Shown here piece by piece: positions 32,838 through 57,385 of a DNA stretch of 64,000 nt. Under the pieces are notes generated by a model that saw nothing but the letters and a program-made list of their open reading frames with translations, had not been told where the DNA came from and made no database searches. Location: NCBI GenBank assembly GCA_964355645.1, contig CAYHDI010000002.1:11452-75451 (forward strand). Direction: 5' to 3'. The DNA is from an uncultured Candidatus Saccharibacteria bacterium. Its GTDB lineage: Bacteria; Patescibacteriota; Minisyncoccia; Phycocordibacterales; Zambryskibacteraceae. Each line of letters opens with the position of its first letter. Positions within the stretch are counted from its first letter, which is position 1. The position numbers and the translations under genes are program-made.

Positions 32838-33551
32838 ATGATTGATCGTGAAAAAATTAAACCTCAACATCTCTGGTATTTTATAGGATTGATTGTAACC
32901 GATGGAAATCTAAGTAAAAGTGGACGACATATTATTCTGACTTCTAAAGATAGAGAGCATCTATATTTAATTAAGAAGATTCTAGGGCTTACAAATGTTA
33001 TTGGCAGAAAGACTAGGGCTAGTTCAGAAGATAGATTATATTCTACCCTTCAGTTTGGAGATATTCGTTTTTATAAATACTTACAGAGCATAGGCATAAC
33101 CCAGAAAAAATCTCTTACTCTTGGAAAGATTGCAATAGACAAAAAATATTTCTGCGATTTTTTGAGAGGGGTAATTGATGGTGATGGCTATATTACTAGA
33201 TGGAAACATAAAAATAATGGGTTAAATCAGTGGGCTTTGGGCATTGTCTCTGCGGCTCCCGTATTTATTTGTTGGTTAAAAAATGAAATAGAGATACAGT
33301 TTAAAGTAAGGGGAAGGTTACACATTTATCTACCAAAAGGAAAGAAAAACCCTATAAACACATTAAAATTTGGGAAACTTGCTGGTAAGGTGATTATAAA
33401 AAATGTTTATTATAAGAATTCTTTTTGTCTGGAAAGAAAAAGACTCAAATGTGAAGAGTGTTTACTAGATAGGAATCGAATGGTAAATTATGGGGGTGTC
33501 ATTCGCCCGGGTGCTGAAATCGGTAGACAGCCTCGACTTAAAATCGAGTGA
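32838..33551 (+). CDS. LAGLIDADG homing endonuclease (double-motif)
   Basis: Two LAGLIDADG motifs are present: YFIGLIVTDGNL and DFLRGVIDGDGYI. The gene is AT-rich. Its last roughly 45 nt read into the 5' half of tRNA-Leu(TAA). Confidence 0.75.
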   Translation: MIDREKIKPQHLWYFIGLIVTDGNLSKSGRHIILTSKDREHLYLIKKILGLTNVIGRKTRASSEDRLYSTLQFGDIRFYKYLQSIGITQKKSLTLGKIAIDKKYFCDFLRGVIDGDGYITRWKHKNNGLNQWALGIVSAAPVFICWLKNEIEIQFKVRGRLHIYLPKGKKNPINTLKFGKLAGKVIIKNVYYKNSFCLERKRLKCEECLLDRNRMVNYGGVIRPGAEIGRQPRLKIE

Positions 33552-33663: not shown

Positions 33664-33717
33664 CACTTCTGCAAGCTCAGTGTAAACTATTATTTTATTT
33701 CATTCGTAATCTCGTCC

Positions 33718-33756
33718 AATCTCTGACGGTTGCGTTCACCATAATCAATTTTCCAA
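33718..33756 (+). repeat. 39-bp perfect direct repeat, copy 1 (aatctctgacggttgcgttcaccataatcaattttccaa)
   Basis: It is identical to 34804-34842, which lies inside the rbfA 3' coding end. Confidence 0.85.
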
Positions 33757-33801: not shown

Positions 33802-34716
33802 TTATTCAGTTTTTAGATTTTCTGTAAGACCAGAATTTGCAATAATTATTTGAATAATCTTAAGTAAATTCTCAAGTATAGGTACAATTCTTCTGTTTTC
33901 TTCCGCGATATCTTCCTCAGAAGGCAGTTTTCTAGTTCTCAAATATTTGTCACGGTTAGTGGAAAGATACTCAAAACAATAATTAGCTTCGTCAATTATT
34001 TTATTAAATTCCTTTTGTTGTTGTGGGGTTAAAGATGACTCATCTCGTATGTCGAACGAAGGGTCACGCACCATTCGTTCCAAAAGATTTAGGCTAAGAC
34101 TTTTGATATATTGAGCATATTCGATTGCTTTTGTGAGAGTTTGTTGAGAGACAGCAATTCTTTTTGCAAGGATTGTTATCCTATCTTCCTCACTTGCTTT
34201 AGGAAGTTCACTTCCAAGAAATTGTCCGGTGTAGCACCCGTATGAGAGCTTGTTTGTTATATCTCCCCCTATCTCGATTATTTGCTCCAAGAACGTCATA
34301 GGGTTTTGCTCTTTTGTGGTTTCATCTTTGATACGACTCATCTGATACGAACGGAGAATTTTAATATCTGTTCCCACTATCATCTTAAGTGTTACGTCTA
34401 CGTTAGCTCCATGCCCAAGGCGATCTGTAATAGTTCGGACCAAACCTTCAGTATCTATAGGATTGGTTACGACAGGATGTTTATCAGCGCCCTTTATCTG
34501 ATCTAATAATCTATCAACATACCCCTCTTGGATGGCCTTAAGCAACATTGGATTAATTGTTGCCTGTTCCATCTGTTCATGACGATGAGCAGCAGTTTCC
34601 AGAGTAAATTTGGGATCACGAAAATCTTCTTCTCTTAATGCCAGATACCGTGCTAATATCCTTGGCTCAATTTCAGGTACGGGTTCTTCAAGTTTTTCTT
34701 CATTCATATAACGCAT
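33802..34716 (-). CDS. hypothetical protein (304 aa), cargo of the direct-repeat-flanked insertion; no recognisable domain
   Basis: The complete ORF is AT-rich and co-oriented with infB-rbfA. Confidence 0.4.
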   Translation of the reverse strand: MRYMNEEKLEEPVPEIEPRILARYLALREEDFRDPKFTLETAAHRHEQMEQATINPMLLKAIQEGYVDRLLDQIKGADKHPVVTNPIDTEGLVRTITDRLGHGANVDVTLKMIVGTDIKILRSYQMSRIKDETTKEQNPMTFLEQIIEIGGDITNKLSYGCYTGQFLGSELPKASEEDRITILAKRIAVSQQTLTKAIEYAQYIKSLSLNLLERMVRDPSFDIRDESSLTPQQQKEFNKIIDEANYCFEYLSTNRDKYLRTRKLPSEEDIAEENRRIVPILENLLKIIQIIIANSGLTENLKTE

Positions 34717-34784: not shown

Positions 34785-35105
34785 TCAAACCGAAAGTTTA
34801 TCTAATCTCTGACGGTTGCGTTCACCATAATCAATTTTCCAACGGAGATGGGGGATAATACCGATTTTGGATTTGTCGCGGACGAAATGCATAAACTCGC
34901 TTCCTTTTCTTTCTAAAAATTTCAACGCGGTGTCTTCCTGACTGTCGGGTAGGGTAGTGAAGTATAGGTCGGCCACTTTCCCAGAAGGATTAAGTTCTAC
35001 TCGAGTGATGGTGATGAGGGATGCGGGAGTAGATTCTCGGAGGACGAAGTCTGCAGCGAGTTGACGAATGATTTCAGCTGTTTTGTCTTTCTTGATTTGT
35101 TTCAT
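34785..35105 (-). CDS. rbfA: ribosome-binding factor A
   Basis: Its 106 aa read ...ITITRVELNPSGKVADLYFTTL... It lies downstream of infB. The 3' end contains direct-repeat copy 2. Confidence 0.75.
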   Translation of the reverse strand: MKQIKKDKTAEIIRQLAADFVLRESTPASLITITRVELNPSGKVADLYFTTLPDSQEDTALKFLERKGSEFMHFVRDKSKIGIIPHLRWKIDYGERNRQRLDKLSV

Positions 35106-43654: not shown

Positions 43655-43709
43655 GTCTACCAACATATTAACAAGAATTTGATTTTAAACAATATGCTAC
43701 AATATTTAT

Positions 43710-54247: not shown

Positions 54248-54780
54248 CTATTCAATATTCGAGCCCATCTCCTTCTGCCATTTTTTCAGAAGCGCATCAT
54301 GGTCGATATAATAATTATCATTAAAATTTGGATTATTTTTTATTATATCAATTTCTTCATACGAAGAGTGCAGTTGCGAAAGTTCAACTAGTGACGGGTC
54401 TACTATCTCTTGTGGTTTAAGCCAATAAGTTTTATCTGCCTCTGGCCTAAGCAAATTTTCGTTTCCAGTGTCTAAAGTTGAAACATTAACGACCAGCGTC
54501 TGTATCTCACCATTGCGTGATAGATCCTTCCTTGAGAGATTTGTTTTTAGTATGCGGAATTAAAAATTTAAGAGTGTTCTTTAGTAGAAAAATTTATTTG
54601 ATTAAAAATATTTTCAACCTCATCTTCTTTTAACAAATCGCAGATATATACCGGGATATTTAATTCAGTATTTTTCCTACTCAATCCAATTACTTTTTGA
54701 TTGTTTTCCTGTAATGATTTAATAAAGCACCCACCTAATTTGGCAGATGCTCCTGTCACAATATACAACTCTTTATTCAT
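54248..54780 (-). pseudogene. disrupted short-chain dehydrogenase/reductase (SDR) gene
   Basis: The 70-aa N-terminal ORF carries the TGASAKLG Rossmann motif and then a stop. Translation resumes in another frame for about 106 aa; the central region appears to be missing. Confidence 0.4.
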
Positions 54781-55115: not shown

Positions 55116-55607
55116 TTATTTGTCTGGGTGATGTTCTTCGAAATCTTTTTTTAAGGCTTCTATTTCATTTCCAATTTTGTTTACAGCGTTTTGCATATTC
55201 TTGATTTGAGACTCCTCCACATCCAATTCCTCTTTTGTTTTTTCTGTTGTTTTCTTTTCTCCACGCAAGCCAGTCATAATAAGTCTGCTTCCAACAAAAG
55301 CAGAGACGAAAACCCCAGTCAGAAGAAGAATAATGCTCCCGACCAAGGTTGATACCCAGCTGTTGCTGAGATAGGGAATACTGTCTGCTGAATGCCATAT
55401 TCCACGCCAGAACAATACAATCCCAATCCCTCCTATAAGTGCGTATATAGTAGGATAGCGAGACAAATGGCCACGAACCTTGTCCTCAAGTTTGTCGAAA
55501 AATACAAATATCTTTCTATACATATTCATCATTATACTAAAGAGTCGAATAAAAGATATAATAGAGTCATGATTAAATATGGCTCCTATTTGGTTTGCAA
55601 GGAACAT
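55116..55607 (-). CDS. hypothetical membrane protein with C-terminal coiled coil
   Basis: It has three or four TM helices and a charged helical C-terminus. Confidence 0.3.
   Translation of the reverse strand: MFLANQIGAIFNHDSIISFIRLFSIMMNMYRKIFVFFDKLEDKVRGHLSRYPTIYALIGGIGIVLFWRGIWHSADSIPYLSNSWVSTLVGSIILLLTGVFVSAFVGSRLIMTGLRGEKKTTEKTKEELDVEESQIKNMQNAVNKIGNEIEALKKDFEEHHPDK
55541..55571 (+). promoter_or_regulatory. 30-bp promoter/start cassette agtcgaataaaagaTATAATagagNcATGA, copy 1 (leaderless TATAAT-N6-ATG)
   Basis: It matches 56634-56665 at 29 of 30 positions. Confidence 0.5.
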
Positions 55608-55949
55608 GTTCAGGAAGTCAGAGATTTTCTATGCGATTTTTTTGAAGAAAAGATAGATAAGTACAATCATGATAATTGGGTGACTTTTTTGATACTCGAT
55701 ACAAATTTTCAAGTGAATTTAATGAAAGGAAACGATCAACCGATGACTCAAAACATGACTTTTGAAATATACTGTGATTCAAAGGAGGAGTTAGAAAAAT
55801 ACGCCGAGAAATACAAATGTGAAATTGAAAGTTTTGTGGCCACAGAAACTTCACAACCATATACCTATTATTATATTGAGATTTTGGGACCATATAATAT
55901 TTGTAAAATCGAAATCAATTATTGTGAGGATTTAAAAGGTAGTTCTTGA
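55569..55949 (+). CDS. hypothetical Cys-rich protein (126 aa)
   Basis: The start was reassigned to the ATG at 55569, 6 nt after the TATAAT. Confidence 0.35.
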   Translation: MIKYGSYLVCKEHVQEVRDFLCDFFEEKIDKYNHDNWVTFLILDTNFQVNLMKGNDQPMTQNMTFEIYCDSKEELEKYAEKYKCEIESFVATETSQPYTYYYIEILGPYNICKIEINYCEDLKGSS

Positions 55950-56027
55950 TTTAGAAAGGTATTATAAATAGCTTTGTATTGTATTGACTTTTAAATCCTG
56001 TTTGTCTATACTTAAAGCATCACCAAT

Positions 56028-56070
56028 GGAAAAGATAACCCTATGAGGTTCCGTCCTCATGGGGCCTTTT
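56028..56070. terminator. bidirectional terminator
   Basis: The stems are ccctatgagg...cctcatgggg, flanked by T/A runs. Confidence 0.5.
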
Positions 56071-56074
56071 CTTT

Positions 56075-56572
56075 TTATTTTTTCTTGTATTCGAGTCGGC
56101 CCTTTAGATCGTTCATACATCGAAGATAAGGCTTAACCTCATCACGTTTGAGGAGAGCAGAAAATTTAAGTTCATCTGGGATTATTACAGCTTCCAATTT
56201 TTCCTTATCAATGAGGTGTTTTACCAAGCAATAGAAATCTCCATCACCAGTCACGATAACCGCCTTCTCATAATTTGGATATTCAATCATCGCTTGTAAT
56301 ACAAGCTCAGCATCACAGTTTCCTTTGGTTGTACCGTCTTTGTATTTAAGGGTAGGTTTGAAGATGCAAATAAATCCAGCGTCTTGAAGAGCAGTGTATA
56401 AATCATTATTTCCTTCGATAAATCCAATGAACAGAAAAGCTTTAGCTATTCCATATTTTTCTTTCAAATATATTCGAAATTTACGAAAATCAAGATTCCA
56501 ACCAAGCGAACGGATACTCAAATTAAGGTTCTGACTGTCAATGAAGGCGCAATTTGTTTGAGGTTTCAGCAT
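56075..56572 (-). CDS. NYN-domain (LabA-like) ribonuclease-family protein
   Basis: ..CAFIDSQNL...KGNCDAELVLQAM...AVIVTGDGDFYCLV is the NYN/PIN-like signature. Confidence 0.55.
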   Translation of the reverse strand: MLKPQTNCAFIDSQNLNLSIRSLGWNLDFRKFRIYLKEKYGIAKAFLFIGFIEGNNDLYTALQDAGFICIFKPTLKYKDGTTKGNCDAELVLQAMIEYPNYEKAVIVTGDGDFYCLVKHLIDKEKLEAVIIPDELKFSALLKRDEVKPYLRCMNDLKGRLEYKKK

Positions 56573-56633
56573 GAAAATCATTATACACTTTCTCAGCTTT
56601 TTATCGTAGTAAATAACATACTGTTTGCTATTA

Positions 56634-56665
56634 TTCAGTCGAATAAAAGATATAATAGAGCCATG
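56634..56665 (+). promoter_or_regulatory. 30-bp promoter/start cassette, copy 2
   Basis: TATAAT at 56651-56656 lies 6 nt before the ATG at 56663. Confidence 0.5.
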
Positions 56666-57385
56666 AATCTAATTTTCCTAGATACCGAGACGACGGGGAA
56701 TGATGTGGTCAAAGACCGCTTGGTGCAGGTTTGCTACAAACTAAGGGATGAAAAACCTAAGGTCGAATATTTCAAAGCCCCCTTGCCGATGAGTGTGAAG
56801 GCTATGAGCATTACGCACATCACGGACAAAATGCTTGCAGAAAAAGATTCGTTTGAGACGAGCCAAATGCGCAAGGATTTGGAATTTCTCCTCGCTGGAG
56901 GAGTGCTCGTGGCTCATAATGCGAAATTCGATGTGGCCATGCTCGAGGCCGAAGGAGTGAAAGTTTCTCGTTTCATTTGTACTCTTCGGGTGGCAAGATT
57001 CCTTGATGCGAAAAATTTAATTCCTGAATATAATTTGCAATTCCTTCGCTATTATATGGGTTTGGAAATTGAAGGTAATCCGCATGATGCAGAAGGGGAT
57101 GTGAATGTCCTCGTAGCTGTGTTCGAACGTTTGTATAAAAAAATATTGGAGGTAGAGAATCCGCCAGCTGGCGGAGAAGAGGTTGTCATAAACAAAATGA
57201 TTGAGATTTCGAGCAAGCCATCCCTCTTTACCTTTTTTAATTTTGGGAAATATAAAGACAAGAAGATTGAAGAAGTAGTGAAAACTGACCGAGGTTATCT
57301 CGAATGGCTTTTGAATCAGAAAACTATTGATGGGGGAATGGATGAGGATTGGATTTATACTTTGAAATATTATTTGGGTAAATAA
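56663..57385 (+). CDS. DnaQ-like DEDDh 3'-5' exonuclease with C-terminal extension
   Basis: Exo I is FLDTETTG, Exo II is VAHNAKFDVAML, and Exo III is HDAEGDVNVL. Confidence 0.7.
   Translation: MNLIFLDTETTGNDVVKDRLVQVCYKLRDEKPKVEYFKAPLPMSVKAMSITHITDKMLAEKDSFETSQMRKDLEFLLAGGVLVAHNAKFDVAMLEAEGVKVSRFICTLRVARFLDAKNLIPEYNLQFLRYYMGLEIEGNPHDAEGDVNVLVAVFERLYKKILEVENPPAGGEEVVINKMIEISSKPSLFTFFNFGKYKDKKIEEVVKTDRGYLEWLLNQKTIDGGMDEDWIYTLKYYLGK

What the first reader, a model, noticed from the sequence alone, without database searches (positions are those of the whole stretch)
55541..56665. Duplicated 30-bp promoter/start-codon cassette driving two different genes, part of a TATAAT-N6-ATG leaderless pattern
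The cassette agtcgaataaaagaTATAATagag(t/c)cATGA occurs at 55541 and again at 56634 with one mismatch. In both copies the -10 box lies exactly 6 nt before the ATG of unrelated genes: a Cys-rich hypothetical gene and a DnaQ-like exonuclease. The same TATAAT-like box, 6-nt spacer and ATG geometry recurs at the methyltransferase (26539 and 26551), dnaX (52126 and 52138), parB (TACAAT, 43692 and 43704... ATG 43710) and the cysteine desulfurase (TAGAAT 36683, ATG 36695). This implies frequent leaderless mRNAs and a portable promoter-start module.
Basis: seen in the sequence. Interest (0 to 1): 0.5.

Follow-up and report, generated by a model that had tools for sequence, protein, structure and literature searches.

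The report
Promoter duplicated by a gene insertion
The 30-base repeat is real: it is the exonuclease gene's own "leaderless" promoter and start codon, copied when a two-gene accessory segment was inserted at that spot in a Parcubacteria (CPR) genome, so it is an insertion scar that feeds both genes and not a roaming promoter module.

Summary
AGTCGAATAAAAGATATAATAGAG[T/C]CATGA occurs at 55543-55572 and 56637-56666 (29/30 identical; none in 100 shuffles). In each copy TATAAT lies 6 nt before an ATG.

The leaderless geometry is real and clade-wide. TATAAT-like boxes followed by N6 and an ATG that opens a long ORF number 10 in the window, against a background of 1.3. In 79 other Parcubacteria species the count is 78 against 13.4. 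The peak is specific to ATG. This is the known "group C" leaderless gene organisation, here in a candidate-phyla-radiation bacterium.

The "portable module" reading is only partly right. Five related lineages (73-91% ExoX identity) have a membrane-protein gene, a conserved ~45-nt two-way promoter and exoX, with one copy of the cassette. The window lineage has 1,064 bp inserted there: a VOC-fold gene, a terminator and an NYN gene. The insert is flanked by the duplicated -26..+4 of exoX.

Two other cargos occupy the same site in other lineages. Similar 33-44-nt boundary duplications flank small insertions elsewhere, including one at rbfA in this window. No transposase, integrase or shared core was found, so how the duplication arises is unknown. 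Transcription start sites were not tested.

The parts
55116..55523 (-). Resident 135-aa membrane-protein gene, the divergent neighbour of the cassette. Its ATG at 55523 is preceded by TATAAT-N7.
   Evidence: ORF and public gene call. Orthologue lies next to exoX in relatives. Geometry.
55531..55536 (-). -10 box (TATAAT on the minus strand) of the membrane-protein gene. It forms the left half of the conserved ~45-nt two-way promoter.
   Evidence: Sequence. ATTATAC is invariant in 8 aligned orthologous regions.
55543..55572 (+). Direct repeat copy 1 (positions -26..+4 relative to the ATG). It keeps the ancestral left flank and now sits in front of the inserted 126-aa gene.
   Evidence: The left flank is collinear with L006, L108, L122 and L008.
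55557..55562 (+). -10 box TATAAT of copy 1, 6 nt before ATG 55569.
55569..55949 (+). Cargo gene 1: a 126-aa Cys-rich protein with a VOC (glyoxalase / bleomycin-resistance / FosX) fold. It belongs to a small accessory family found in varied genomic contexts.
   Evidence: No Pfam match. 39 homologues with a conserved M-x-K-Y start. AlphaFold pLDDT 93.7 and Foldseek hits to VOC proteins. Varied contexts.
55573..56636 (.). Unique part of the inserted segment (1,064 bp), absent from related genomes.
   Evidence: Gap between the membrane gene and exoX is 1139 nt here against 45-67 nt in L006, L108, L122, L008-10 and L123.
56039..56064 (.). G+C-rich hairpin followed by a T-run, lying between the two convergent cargo genes. 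Probably a two-way terminator.
56075..56572 (-). Cargo gene 2: a 165-aa NYN-domain (LabA-like) protein. It has its own TATAAT (56580-56585, minus strand)-N7-ATG.
   Evidence: Pfam NYN, E = 1.3e-12. Geometry.
56637..56666 (+). Direct repeat copy 2 (-26..+4). It keeps the ancestral right flank, the exoX coding sequence.
56651..56656 (+). -10 box TATAAT of copy 2, 6 nt before ATG 56663.
56663..57385 (+). Resident 240-aa DEDD 3'-5' exonuclease (RNase_T + ExoX-like_C), widespread in Parcubacteria.
   Evidence: Pfam. 3,179 homologues. Alignment shows a conserved start and catalytic motifs.
33715..33756 (.). Second example in the window, repeat copy A. A 42-nt direct repeat (41/42 identical) lies within the orphaned ancestral 3' end of rbfA, which reads ...WKIDYGERNRQRLDEITNEIK*.
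33802..34707 (-). Second example, cargo: a 301-aa orphan gene with TATAAT-N7-ATG, inserted into the 3' end of rbfA.
   Evidence: Absent from relative L124, where rbfA abuts the tRNA cluster.
34801..34842 (.). Second example, repeat copy B, inside the intact rbfA gene (34785-35105, minus strand). The RbfA C-terminus is now supplied by insert sequence (...RQRLDKLSV*).

Best explanation
The window comes from a Parcubacteria/Patescibacteria (CPR) genome in which many first genes of operons are arranged as leaderless genes. A -10 box (TATAAT-like) sits 6, sometimes 7, nt upstream of an ATG. RNA polymerase should therefore start at or next to the A of the ATG, and the ribosome would load on a 5'-terminal AUG without a Shine-Dalgarno site.

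exoX and its divergent membrane-protein neighbour share an old, conserved ~45-nt two-way promoter of this type. In the lineage of the window, a 1,064-bp accessory segment was inserted at the exoX promoter/start junction. It carries a VOC-fold gene, a terminator and an NYN gene with its own leaderless promoter. The 30 nt from -26 to +4 of exoX were duplicated on both sides of the insert.

The left copy now provides the -10 box, spacer and start context for the incoming VOC-fold gene. The right copy keeps exoX attached to a complete promoter. In a leaderless gene the promoter and start codon are one unit, so only insertions that regenerate that unit would leave exoX functional.

Shown: the repeat, the geometry and its enrichment, the empty sites in relatives, and independent cargos at the same site.

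Inferred: that transcription starts at the ATG, that both copies are active, and how the duplication arose. My preferred guess for the last is recombination with overlapping joints, or single-crossover integration of a circular DNA that carried the short homology, filtered by selection. It is not transposition.
For: Repeat: two copies, 29/30 identical, 0 in 100 shuffles.

Geometry:
- The TA.AAT|TATA.T-Nk-ATG (ORF of 80 codons or more) histogram peaks at k=6. Window: 10 against a background of 1.3, Poisson P about 1e-6. In 79 species loci (626 kb): 78 against 13.4, P about 1e-33.
- There is no such peak for GTG, TTG or CTG.
- About 17 window genes have a near-consensus -10 box at N6/N7, including all four genes at this locus.
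- The whole intergenic region left of copy 1 is 45 nt and must hold both promoters.

Empty sites: L006 (91%), L108 (87%), L122 (80%), L008-10 (75%) and L123 (73%) have the membrane gene, 45-67 nt, then exoX, with a single AATAAAAGATATAAT. The identity matrix places empty-site genomes inside both clades that carry insertions.

Independent cargos at the same site:
- L007/L011 carry a 134-aa gene flanked by AAATAA[A/G]AGATATAAT.
- L118 has a 100% identical membrane protein, but a different gene follows the -10 box. Its homology to the window ends at 55563.

The cargo gene has its own conserved Met start. In another genome it has its own, unrelated TATAAT-N6-ATG. The upstream 26 nt in the window therefore came from exoX.

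The same kind of scar occurs elsewhere:
- rbfA in the window: 42-nt repeat, orphaned ancestral C-terminus, empty site in L124.
- L065: 33-nt repeat covering -1..+32 of exoX, around a NERD gene.
- L020: 44-nt repeat of a gene start, around a RelB-family antitoxin gene (Pfam) and a second small ORF I read as a RelE/ParE-type toxin (not scanned).
- L029: 38-nt repeat of a gene end.

The arrangement is seen in at least 5 independent assemblies. The leaderless -10 box at 6-8 nt is a described genome class (PMC6028130).
Against: - No transcription start site or expression data exist, so leaderless initiation and activity of both copies are inferred from geometry only.
- In one orthologue (L123) the conserved -10 box is 28 nt from the ATG. 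In L007 copy 1 it is 18 nt from the cargo ATG. The box-to-ATG distance is therefore not invariant.
- The mechanism that produces a 30-nt duplication is unknown.
- Empty sites could in principle arise by precise deletion between the repeats. That would need at least 4 independent losses against 1 gain.
- The other repeat-flanked insertions come from loci chosen around exoX (ascertainment bias). Only the rbfA case was checked against a relative.
- The single mismatch in each window repeat lies next to the insert-derived side. This fits incoming DNA that already carried the homology at least as well as fill-in duplication.
Confidence: 0.8

Rival explanations
1. Mobile or portable promoter module. 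Under this reading the 30-nt promoter-plus-start unit moves through the genome and gets placed in front of unrelated genes, as proposed for putative mobile promoters.
For: The same promoter/start sequence precedes two non-homologous genes. Promoter reuse is documented in prokaryotes (PMC3488235).
Against: There are only two copies, adjacent and flanking one insertion. There is no third copy in the window at up to 3 mismatches. All other occurrences in 125 fetched loci are orthologous exoX promoters. No other within-locus promoter duplication was found among 352 candidates. At 30 nt it is shorter than the 50-100 nt used to define such promoters. The rest of the source genome was not available.
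Confidence: 0.07
2. Shared operator or regulon. Under this reading the 14 nt upstream of the -10 box (AGTCGAATAAAAGA) are a regulator binding site, and selection keeps them identical at both genes so that they are co-regulated.
For: AATAAAAGA directly upstream of TATAAT is invariant or nearly so across orthologues down to 73% protein identity. It is therefore under constraint, as a promoter element or as an operator.
Against: Identity also covers the 6-nt spacer and runs to +4. It stops abruptly at both ends, as expected of a duplication. Relatives have one copy. The 126-aa gene has an unrelated upstream sequence in other genomes. Co-regulation would be a consequence of the duplication, not its cause.
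Confidence: 0.05
3. Site-specific integration of a small non-autonomous element. Under this reading the repeats are attL/attR produced by an integrase acting in trans, as with islands that duplicate the end of their target gene. An integron-like cassette capture at a promoter is a variant of the same idea.
For: The repeat flanks cargo and restores the target gene boundary at exoX and at rbfA. The site carries different cargos in different strains. The single mismatches lie beside insert-derived DNA, as expected if the element brought its own copy. The cargo is a VOC-fold protein, a class also seen among integron cassettes (hit 3ghj).
Against: No integrase, transposase or IntI among the precomputed Pfam hits listed for about 3 kb upstream and 10 kb downstream of exoX. 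No terminal inverted repeats and no attC-like palindrome at the insert ends. The six repeat sequences share no core. The repeat boundaries differ between the three exoX events: -26..+4, about -27..-7, and -1..+32.
Confidence: 0.08

Closest known systems
Leaderless genes of 'group C' bacterial genomes (GeneMarkS-2 classification; Actinobacteria, Deinococcus-Thermus; PMC6028130)
   Same: A Pribnow box lies 6-8 nt upstream of the start codon of first genes in operons. There is no Shine-Dalgarno site. Roughly a quarter to a third of genes are affected. ATG is strongly preferred.
   Different: The host is a low-G+C (42%) Parcubacteria/CPR genome, not a high-G+C actinobacterium. No paper pairing 'leaderless' with Parcubacteria was found, and the few pairing it with Patescibacteria, candidate phyla radiation or Saccharibacteria did not appear to address it; three were opened and one was left unopened. 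No transcription start site data exist for this organism.
Putative mobile promoters / promoter reuse (Matus-Garcia, Nijveen and van Passel 2012, PMC3488235)
   Same: Near-identical promoter sequence lies upstream of non-homologous genes within one genome.
   Different: Those promoters are defined as 50-100 nt at 80% identity or more, and are often dispersed. Here there are 30 nt in two adjacent copies that demonstrably arose as the flanks of one insertion. The unit includes the start codon.
Target-gene-end duplication by integrative elements (att direct repeats, for example islands in tRNA 3' ends; from general knowledge)
   Same: Direct repeats of tens of nt flank acquired DNA and rebuild the interrupted gene boundary. 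The rbfA case leaves an orphaned ancestral 3' end, exactly as such elements do.
   Different: No integrase is present in the cargo or nearby. The cargo is only 0.4-1.5 kb. At exoX the rebuilt boundary is a promoter plus start codon, not a 3' end.
Integron Pc/attI cassette expression (from general knowledge)
   Same: The site lies next to a promoter, receives different small cargo genes in different strains and gives them expression.
   Different: No intI and no attC were found. The promoter is duplicated with each insertion and is not shared by an array.

Membership tests
Bacterial leaderless gene/promoter architecture (GeneMarkS-2 group C type) | -10 (Pribnow) box located 6-8 nt upstream of the start codon | tested here: met
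   TATAAT-N6-ATG at both copies. N7 at the two divergent genes.
Bacterial leaderless gene/promoter architecture (GeneMarkS-2 group C type) | The geometry is enriched at gene starts across the genome or clade relative to other spacings | tested here: met
   Window: k=6 gives 10 against a background of 1.3. In 79 related species: 78 against 13.4. Only a 64-kb window of this genome was available.
Bacterial leaderless gene/promoter architecture (GeneMarkS-2 group C type) | AUG start codon preference and no Shine-Dalgarno motif in the short upstream spacer | tested here: met
   No k=6 peak for GTG, TTG or CTG. The spacers AGAGTC and AGAGCC carry no SD motif.
Bacterial leaderless gene/promoter architecture (GeneMarkS-2 group C type) | The mapped transcription start coincides with the start codon | not testable with these tools
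   No transcriptome data are accessible. This needs dRNA-seq, 5'-RACE or metatranscriptome mapping.
Putative mobile promoters (PMC3488235) | Homologous upstream region of 50-100 nt at 80% identity or more | tested here: not met
   Identity spans 30 nt and ends 26 nt upstream of the ATG.
Putative mobile promoters (PMC3488235) | Located upstream of non-homologous genes | tested here: met
   VOC-fold protein and DEDD exonuclease.
Putative mobile promoters (PMC3488235) | Evidence of mobilisation to separate genomic places | tested here: not met
   Only two adjacent copies exist. Other matches are orthologous exoX promoters. The remainder of the genome was not searched.
Transposon / IS target-site duplication | Direct repeat flanks DNA that is absent from the empty site in relatives | tested here: met
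Transposon / IS target-site duplication | The element has terminal inverted repeats and/or encodes a transposase, and the duplication is short (about 2-15 bp) | tested here: not met
   No inverted repeats at the insert ends. The cargo genes encode a VOC-fold protein and an NYN protein. The duplication is 30 nt.
Integrase-mediated integrative element (att repeats) | Tyrosine or serine recombinase in the element or next to it | tested here: not met
   None among the precomputed Pfam hits listed for about 3 kb upstream and 10 kb downstream of exoX. The rest of the genome was not examined.
Integrase-mediated integrative element (att repeats) | A common core sequence shared by integration sites of the same system | tested here: not met
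   The repeats at exoX, rbfA, L065, L020 and L029 show no shared motif by inspection.
Integron | intI gene, attI site and attC-bounded cassettes | tested here: not met
   No integrase nearby. No attC-like imperfect palindrome at the cassette end.

The most novel reading that the evidence does not exclude
Parcubacteria may add accessory genes to their very compact genomes through a recurrent process that needs no element-encoded integrase. That process would duplicate 30-45 nt of a resident gene boundary: a leaderless promoter plus start codon, a 5' coding start, or a 3' end. The resident gene stays intact and the cargo is expressed at once from the duplicated leaderless promoter. The exoX promoter would be a strain-variable hotspot of this process. 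This would amount to a promoter-copying cassette system specific to leaderless genomes, not a set of unrelated recombination accidents.
Probability: 0.15. Interest if true: 0.65.

Novelty: new variant of a known kind. Interest (0 to 1): 0.42.

Why it matters
It gives sequence-level evidence that leaderless initiation is a major mode of gene expression in Parcubacteria, a CPR lineage with unusual reduced ribosomes and no cultured models. No paper I found addresses this. Gene callers and start-site annotation for these genomes should take it into account.

The duplication is also a natural experiment. exoX keeps only 26 nt of its native upstream DNA, which suggests that -26..+1 is a sufficient promoter/start unit. 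That short fragment is a concrete candidate for reporter tests.

It also shows how a genome with ~45-nt intergenic regions can accept new genes without losing old ones, by copying the interrupted boundary. Accessory-gene turnover in CPR populations could then be traced from such repeat scars.

Tried and rejected
- **Chance repeat:** rejected (0 of 100 shuffles).
- **Assembly artefact:** rejected; the same structure is in at least 5 independent assemblies.
- **Full sigma-70 promoter with a -35 box:** the consensus scan did not call either copy, and the two copies have different -35 regions. I treat them as promoters that depend mainly on the -10 box.
- **Transposon:** no inverted repeats and no transposase.
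- **Integron:** no intI and no attC. A GTTRRRY-like core occurs only in L006 and is not conserved.
- **Defence-system or toxin-antitoxin identity for the cargo pair:** PADLOC gave only a weak NYN hit. An NYN gene lies next to a homologue of the 126-aa gene in L093, but it is not detectably related to the window's NYN gene.
- **Whole two-way promoter duplicated:** the membrane gene and the NYN gene share GTATAATGAT, so NYN might use a copy of the leftward half. Only 4 nt beyond the hexamer match, so I left this as a possibility.
- **Metagenome scan with ATTATAC-N9-12-AATAARAGATATAAT:** mostly AT-rich chance hits; only 3 of 22 loci were relevant.
- **Literature:** no paper holds 'leaderless' with Parcubacteria; the few holding it with Patescibacteria, candidate phyla radiation or Saccharibacteria did not appear to address CPR leaderless genes (three opened, one left unopened).
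- **L118 cargo:** only 31 residues are on the contig, and they gave no Pfam hit.
Full report
**1. The observation**

The repeat AGTCGAATAAAAGATATAATAGAG[T/C]CATGA is present at 55543-55572 and 56637-56666. The two copies are 29/30 identical and 1094 nt apart. A search allowing 3 mismatches finds only these two copies in the window and none in 100 shuffles.

TATAAT lies exactly 6 nt before ATG 55569 and ATG 56663. The first ATG opens a 126-aa Cys-rich ORF with no Pfam match. The second opens a 240-aa RNase_T + ExoX-like_C exonuclease.

Both starts are supported in two ways. Public gene calls on independent assemblies of the same locus use them. Homologue N-termini agree: the DEDD motif DTETTG begins at residue 7 of ExoX, and the 126-aa family has a conserved M-x-K-Y-G-S start.

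One slip: the parB box TACAAT is at 43698-43703.

**2. The surroundings**

The two genes that diverge from the cassette copies are built the same way. The 135-aa membrane-protein gene (55116-55523, minus strand) and the 165-aa NYN gene (56075-56572, minus strand) each have TATAAT-N7-ATG. The region between the membrane gene's ATG and ATG 55569 is only 45 nt and holds two back-to-back -10 boxes. A G+C-rich hairpin with a T-run (56039-56064) separates the convergent 126-aa and NYN genes.

**3. Is the leaderless geometry more than chance?**

I used a test that does not depend on annotated starts. It counts every -10-like hexamer followed at spacing k by an ATG that opens at least 80 codons.

| Data set | k=6 | k=7 | Background | Poisson P for k=6 |
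|---|---|---|---|---|
| Window | 10 | 3 | 1.3 | about 1e-6 |
| 79 other Parcubacteria species (626 kb around exoX) | 78 | 38 | 13.4 | about 1e-33 |

The peak is absent for GTG, TTG and CTG, as expected if the ribosome must bind a 5'-terminal AUG.

Exact TATAAT-N6-ATG occurs 6 times in the window against 0.58 expected. About 17 of the roughly 60-65 window genes have a near-consensus box at N6/N7. Only about 6-7 starts have a Shine-Dalgarno-like motif.

Protein names of homologues place the organism in Patescibacteria/Parcubacteria. A -10 box at 6-8 nt from the start of first genes in operons is the described signature of "group C" leaderless genomes (PMC6028130). No paper pairs "leaderless" with Parcubacteria, and the few that pair it with Patescibacteria, candidate phyla radiation or Saccharibacteria did not appear to address it (three opened, one left unopened).

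**4. What the duplication is**

I fetched orthologous loci through ExoX homologues.

| Locus | ExoX identity to window | Arrangement |
|---|---|---|
| L006 | 91% | membrane gene, 45-67 nt, exoX; one cassette copy |
| L108 | 87% | same |
| L122 | 80% | same |
| L008-L010 | 75% | same |
| L123 | 73% | same |

The two-way core ATTATAC...AATAAAAGATATAAT is nearly invariant across these genomes. The promoter is therefore old and resident at this locus.

In the window the gap is 1139 nt. Copy 1 keeps the ancestral left flank and copy 2 keeps the ancestral right flank. The 1,064 bp between them (55573-56636) are absent from all relatives. The repeat is thus a duplication of positions -26..+4 of exoX around an insertion.

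The 126-aa gene's own family starts at the same Met. In another genome (L098) it has an unrelated TATAAT-N6-ATG next to a tRNA. The 26 nt upstream in the window therefore derive from exoX and not from the donor.

The predicted structure of the 126-aa protein is confident (pLDDT 93.7) and matches the VOC fold: glyoxalase, FosX and bleomycin-resistance proteins. It is a typical small accessory protein.

**5. The same site has been hit more than once**

L007/L011 (80% ExoX identity) carry a different gene between the membrane gene and exoX. It encodes 134 aa with a weak nucleotidyltransferase signal, and it is flanked by AAATAA[A/G]AGATATAAT. Their closest relative in this set, L122, has the empty site, as do L006 and L108 for the window. 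These are therefore two independent insertions.

Contig L118 encodes a membrane protein 100% identical to the window's and appears to come from the same groundwater well series as contig L115, which carries the window's arrangement. After the -10 box it has a third gene (MKENVKIVVYVPLTHTD...). Its homology to the window ends at 55563. The site therefore varies between strains.

**6. The same kind of scar occurs elsewhere**

In the window, a 42-nt repeat (41/42 identical; 33715-33756 and 34801-34842) flanks a 301-aa orphan gene inserted into the 3' end of rbfA. The orphaned copy still reads WKIDYGERNRQRLDEITNEIK*, the C-terminus of RbfA in relatives. In L124, rbfA abuts the tRNA cluster with no insert.

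A scan of about 0.87 Mb of fetched loci found three more cases:
- L065: a 33-nt repeat of -1..+32 of exoX around a NERD-domain gene. The remnant mini-ORF MPQLIFLDTETTKK* overlaps the cargo ATG as ATGA.
- L020: a 44-nt repeat of a gene's 5' start around a RelB-family antitoxin gene (Pfam) and a second small ORF that I read as a RelE/ParE-type toxin; that ORF was not scanned.
- L029: a repeat of at least 38 nt covering a gene's 3' end and terminator, around 1.5 kb.

These three were not checked against empty sites, and the loci were all chosen around exoX.

The repeats share no core sequence. No integrase or transposase is among the precomputed Pfam hits listed for about 3 kb upstream and 10 kb downstream of exoX. 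No terminal inverted repeats or attC-like structure bound the insert.

**7. Mechanism**

I take the following as best supported, at about 0.8 for the insertion-and-duplication account. RNA polymerase uses the -10 box, helped by the conserved A-rich stretch just upstream. Neither copy has a recognisable -35 box, and the two -35 regions differ. Transcription should start at the A of the ATG, 7 nt after the box, and the mRNA should be translated without a leader.

The insertion duplicated this compact unit, so the VOC-fold gene acquired it and exoX retained it. Because exoX now has only 26 nt of native upstream DNA, -26..+1 is probably sufficient for its expression.

How the duplication arose is open. 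The options are two recombination joints that overlapped by 30 nt, or single-crossover integration of a circular DNA that already carried the short homology. In both window repeats the single mismatch lies next to insert-derived DNA, which slightly favours the second option. In either case, selection would keep only products that rebuild the gene boundary.

**8. Rivals**

- A truly mobile promoter is unlikely. There are two adjacent copies only, no other duplicated leaderless promoter among 352 candidates, and all other matches are orthologous.
- A shared operator cannot explain identity through the spacer to +4 with sharp ends, nor the single copy in relatives.
- Integrase-mediated or integron-like capture fits the hotspot behaviour but lacks every defining component that could be tested.

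**9. Comparison, novelty and verdict**

The leaderless geometry belongs to a known class and is here extended to a CPR lineage. The duplicated promoter resembles promoter reuse (PMC3488235). It fails that family's operational definition, and it arose in place as an insertion scar.

I rate it a new variant of a known kind, with moderate interest of 0.42. The most novel reading, a recurrent boundary-copying mode of gene gain in CPR genomes, is not excluded but is weakly tested (probability about 0.15).

Noticed in passing
window 33715-33756 and 34801-34842 (with 33802-34707 and 34785-35105): A second repeat-flanked insertion. A 42-nt repeat (41/42 identical) surrounds a 301-aa orphan gene inserted into the 3' end of rbfA. 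The ancestral RbfA C-terminus (..DEITNEIK*) is left orphaned next to tRNA-Gly. Relative L124 has no insert.
   Followed up: yes
window 57161-57174; also 782, 3409, 16590, 18949, 20696, 22110, 24602: The G+C-rich palindrome CCGCCAGCTGGCGG occurs 8 times (up to 2 mismatches) against 0.11 expected. The copy inside exoX coincides with a 4-residue insertion (NPPAGGEE versus KT----DE) relative to the 91% orthologue. This suggests a short in-frame palindromic insertion that spreads within coding sequences.
   Followed up: partly
window 32838-33551: A free-standing LAGLIDADG-domain gene with TAGAAT-N6-ATG lies between tRNA-Cys and tRNA-Leu, and its ORF overlaps the start of the tRNA-Leu gene. In relative L124 these two tRNA genes are only about 30 nt apart, so this is probably another insertion. 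No flanking repeat was detected.
   Followed up: partly
L065 3192-3224 and 3994-4026: In a distant Parcubacteria genome, a 33-nt exact repeat covering -1..+32 of exoX flanks a NERD-domain gene. The remnant 14-codon ORF (MPQLIFLDTETTKK*) ends in an ATGA overlap with the cargo start, which suggests translational coupling.
   Followed up: partly
L020 167-210 and 888-931; L029 925-962 and 2446-2483: Further direct repeats of 38-44 nt that duplicate a gene's 5' start (around a RelB-family antitoxin gene and a second small ORF that looks like a RelE/ParE-type toxin but was not scanned) or a gene's 3' end plus terminator (around 1.5 kb). They were not compared with empty sites.
   Followed up: no
L118 611-960 versus window about 55053/55054: A strain-level indel of about 350 nt lies between tRNA-Gln and the membrane-protein gene. 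L118 carries an extra ORF-like segment that the window lacks, and the flanks are 99-100% identical.
   Followed up: no
window 12938, 20911, 21310, 50833; and 9213, 19393, 61082: Two families of near-identical G+C-rich hairpins (CGCCCCTCTCCTTGTTAAGGAGAGGGG and ACCTAGCAAGAACGGTTCTTGCT) recur after genes. They look like shared terminator palindromes.
   Followed up: no
window 54568-54780 (minus strand): A 70-aa ORF matches only the N-terminal Rossmann part of NAD-dependent epimerases and is preceded by TATAAT-N6-ATG. It is probably a truncated gene remnant beside tRNA-Gln.
   Followed up: no
L123 1824-1892 and L007 3160-3184: The conserved exoX-type -10 box is 28 nt (L123) or 18 nt (L007 cargo gene) from the ATG, with no Shine-Dalgarno motif. 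Some genes in this clade may therefore use short leaders that lack an SD site.
   Followed up: no
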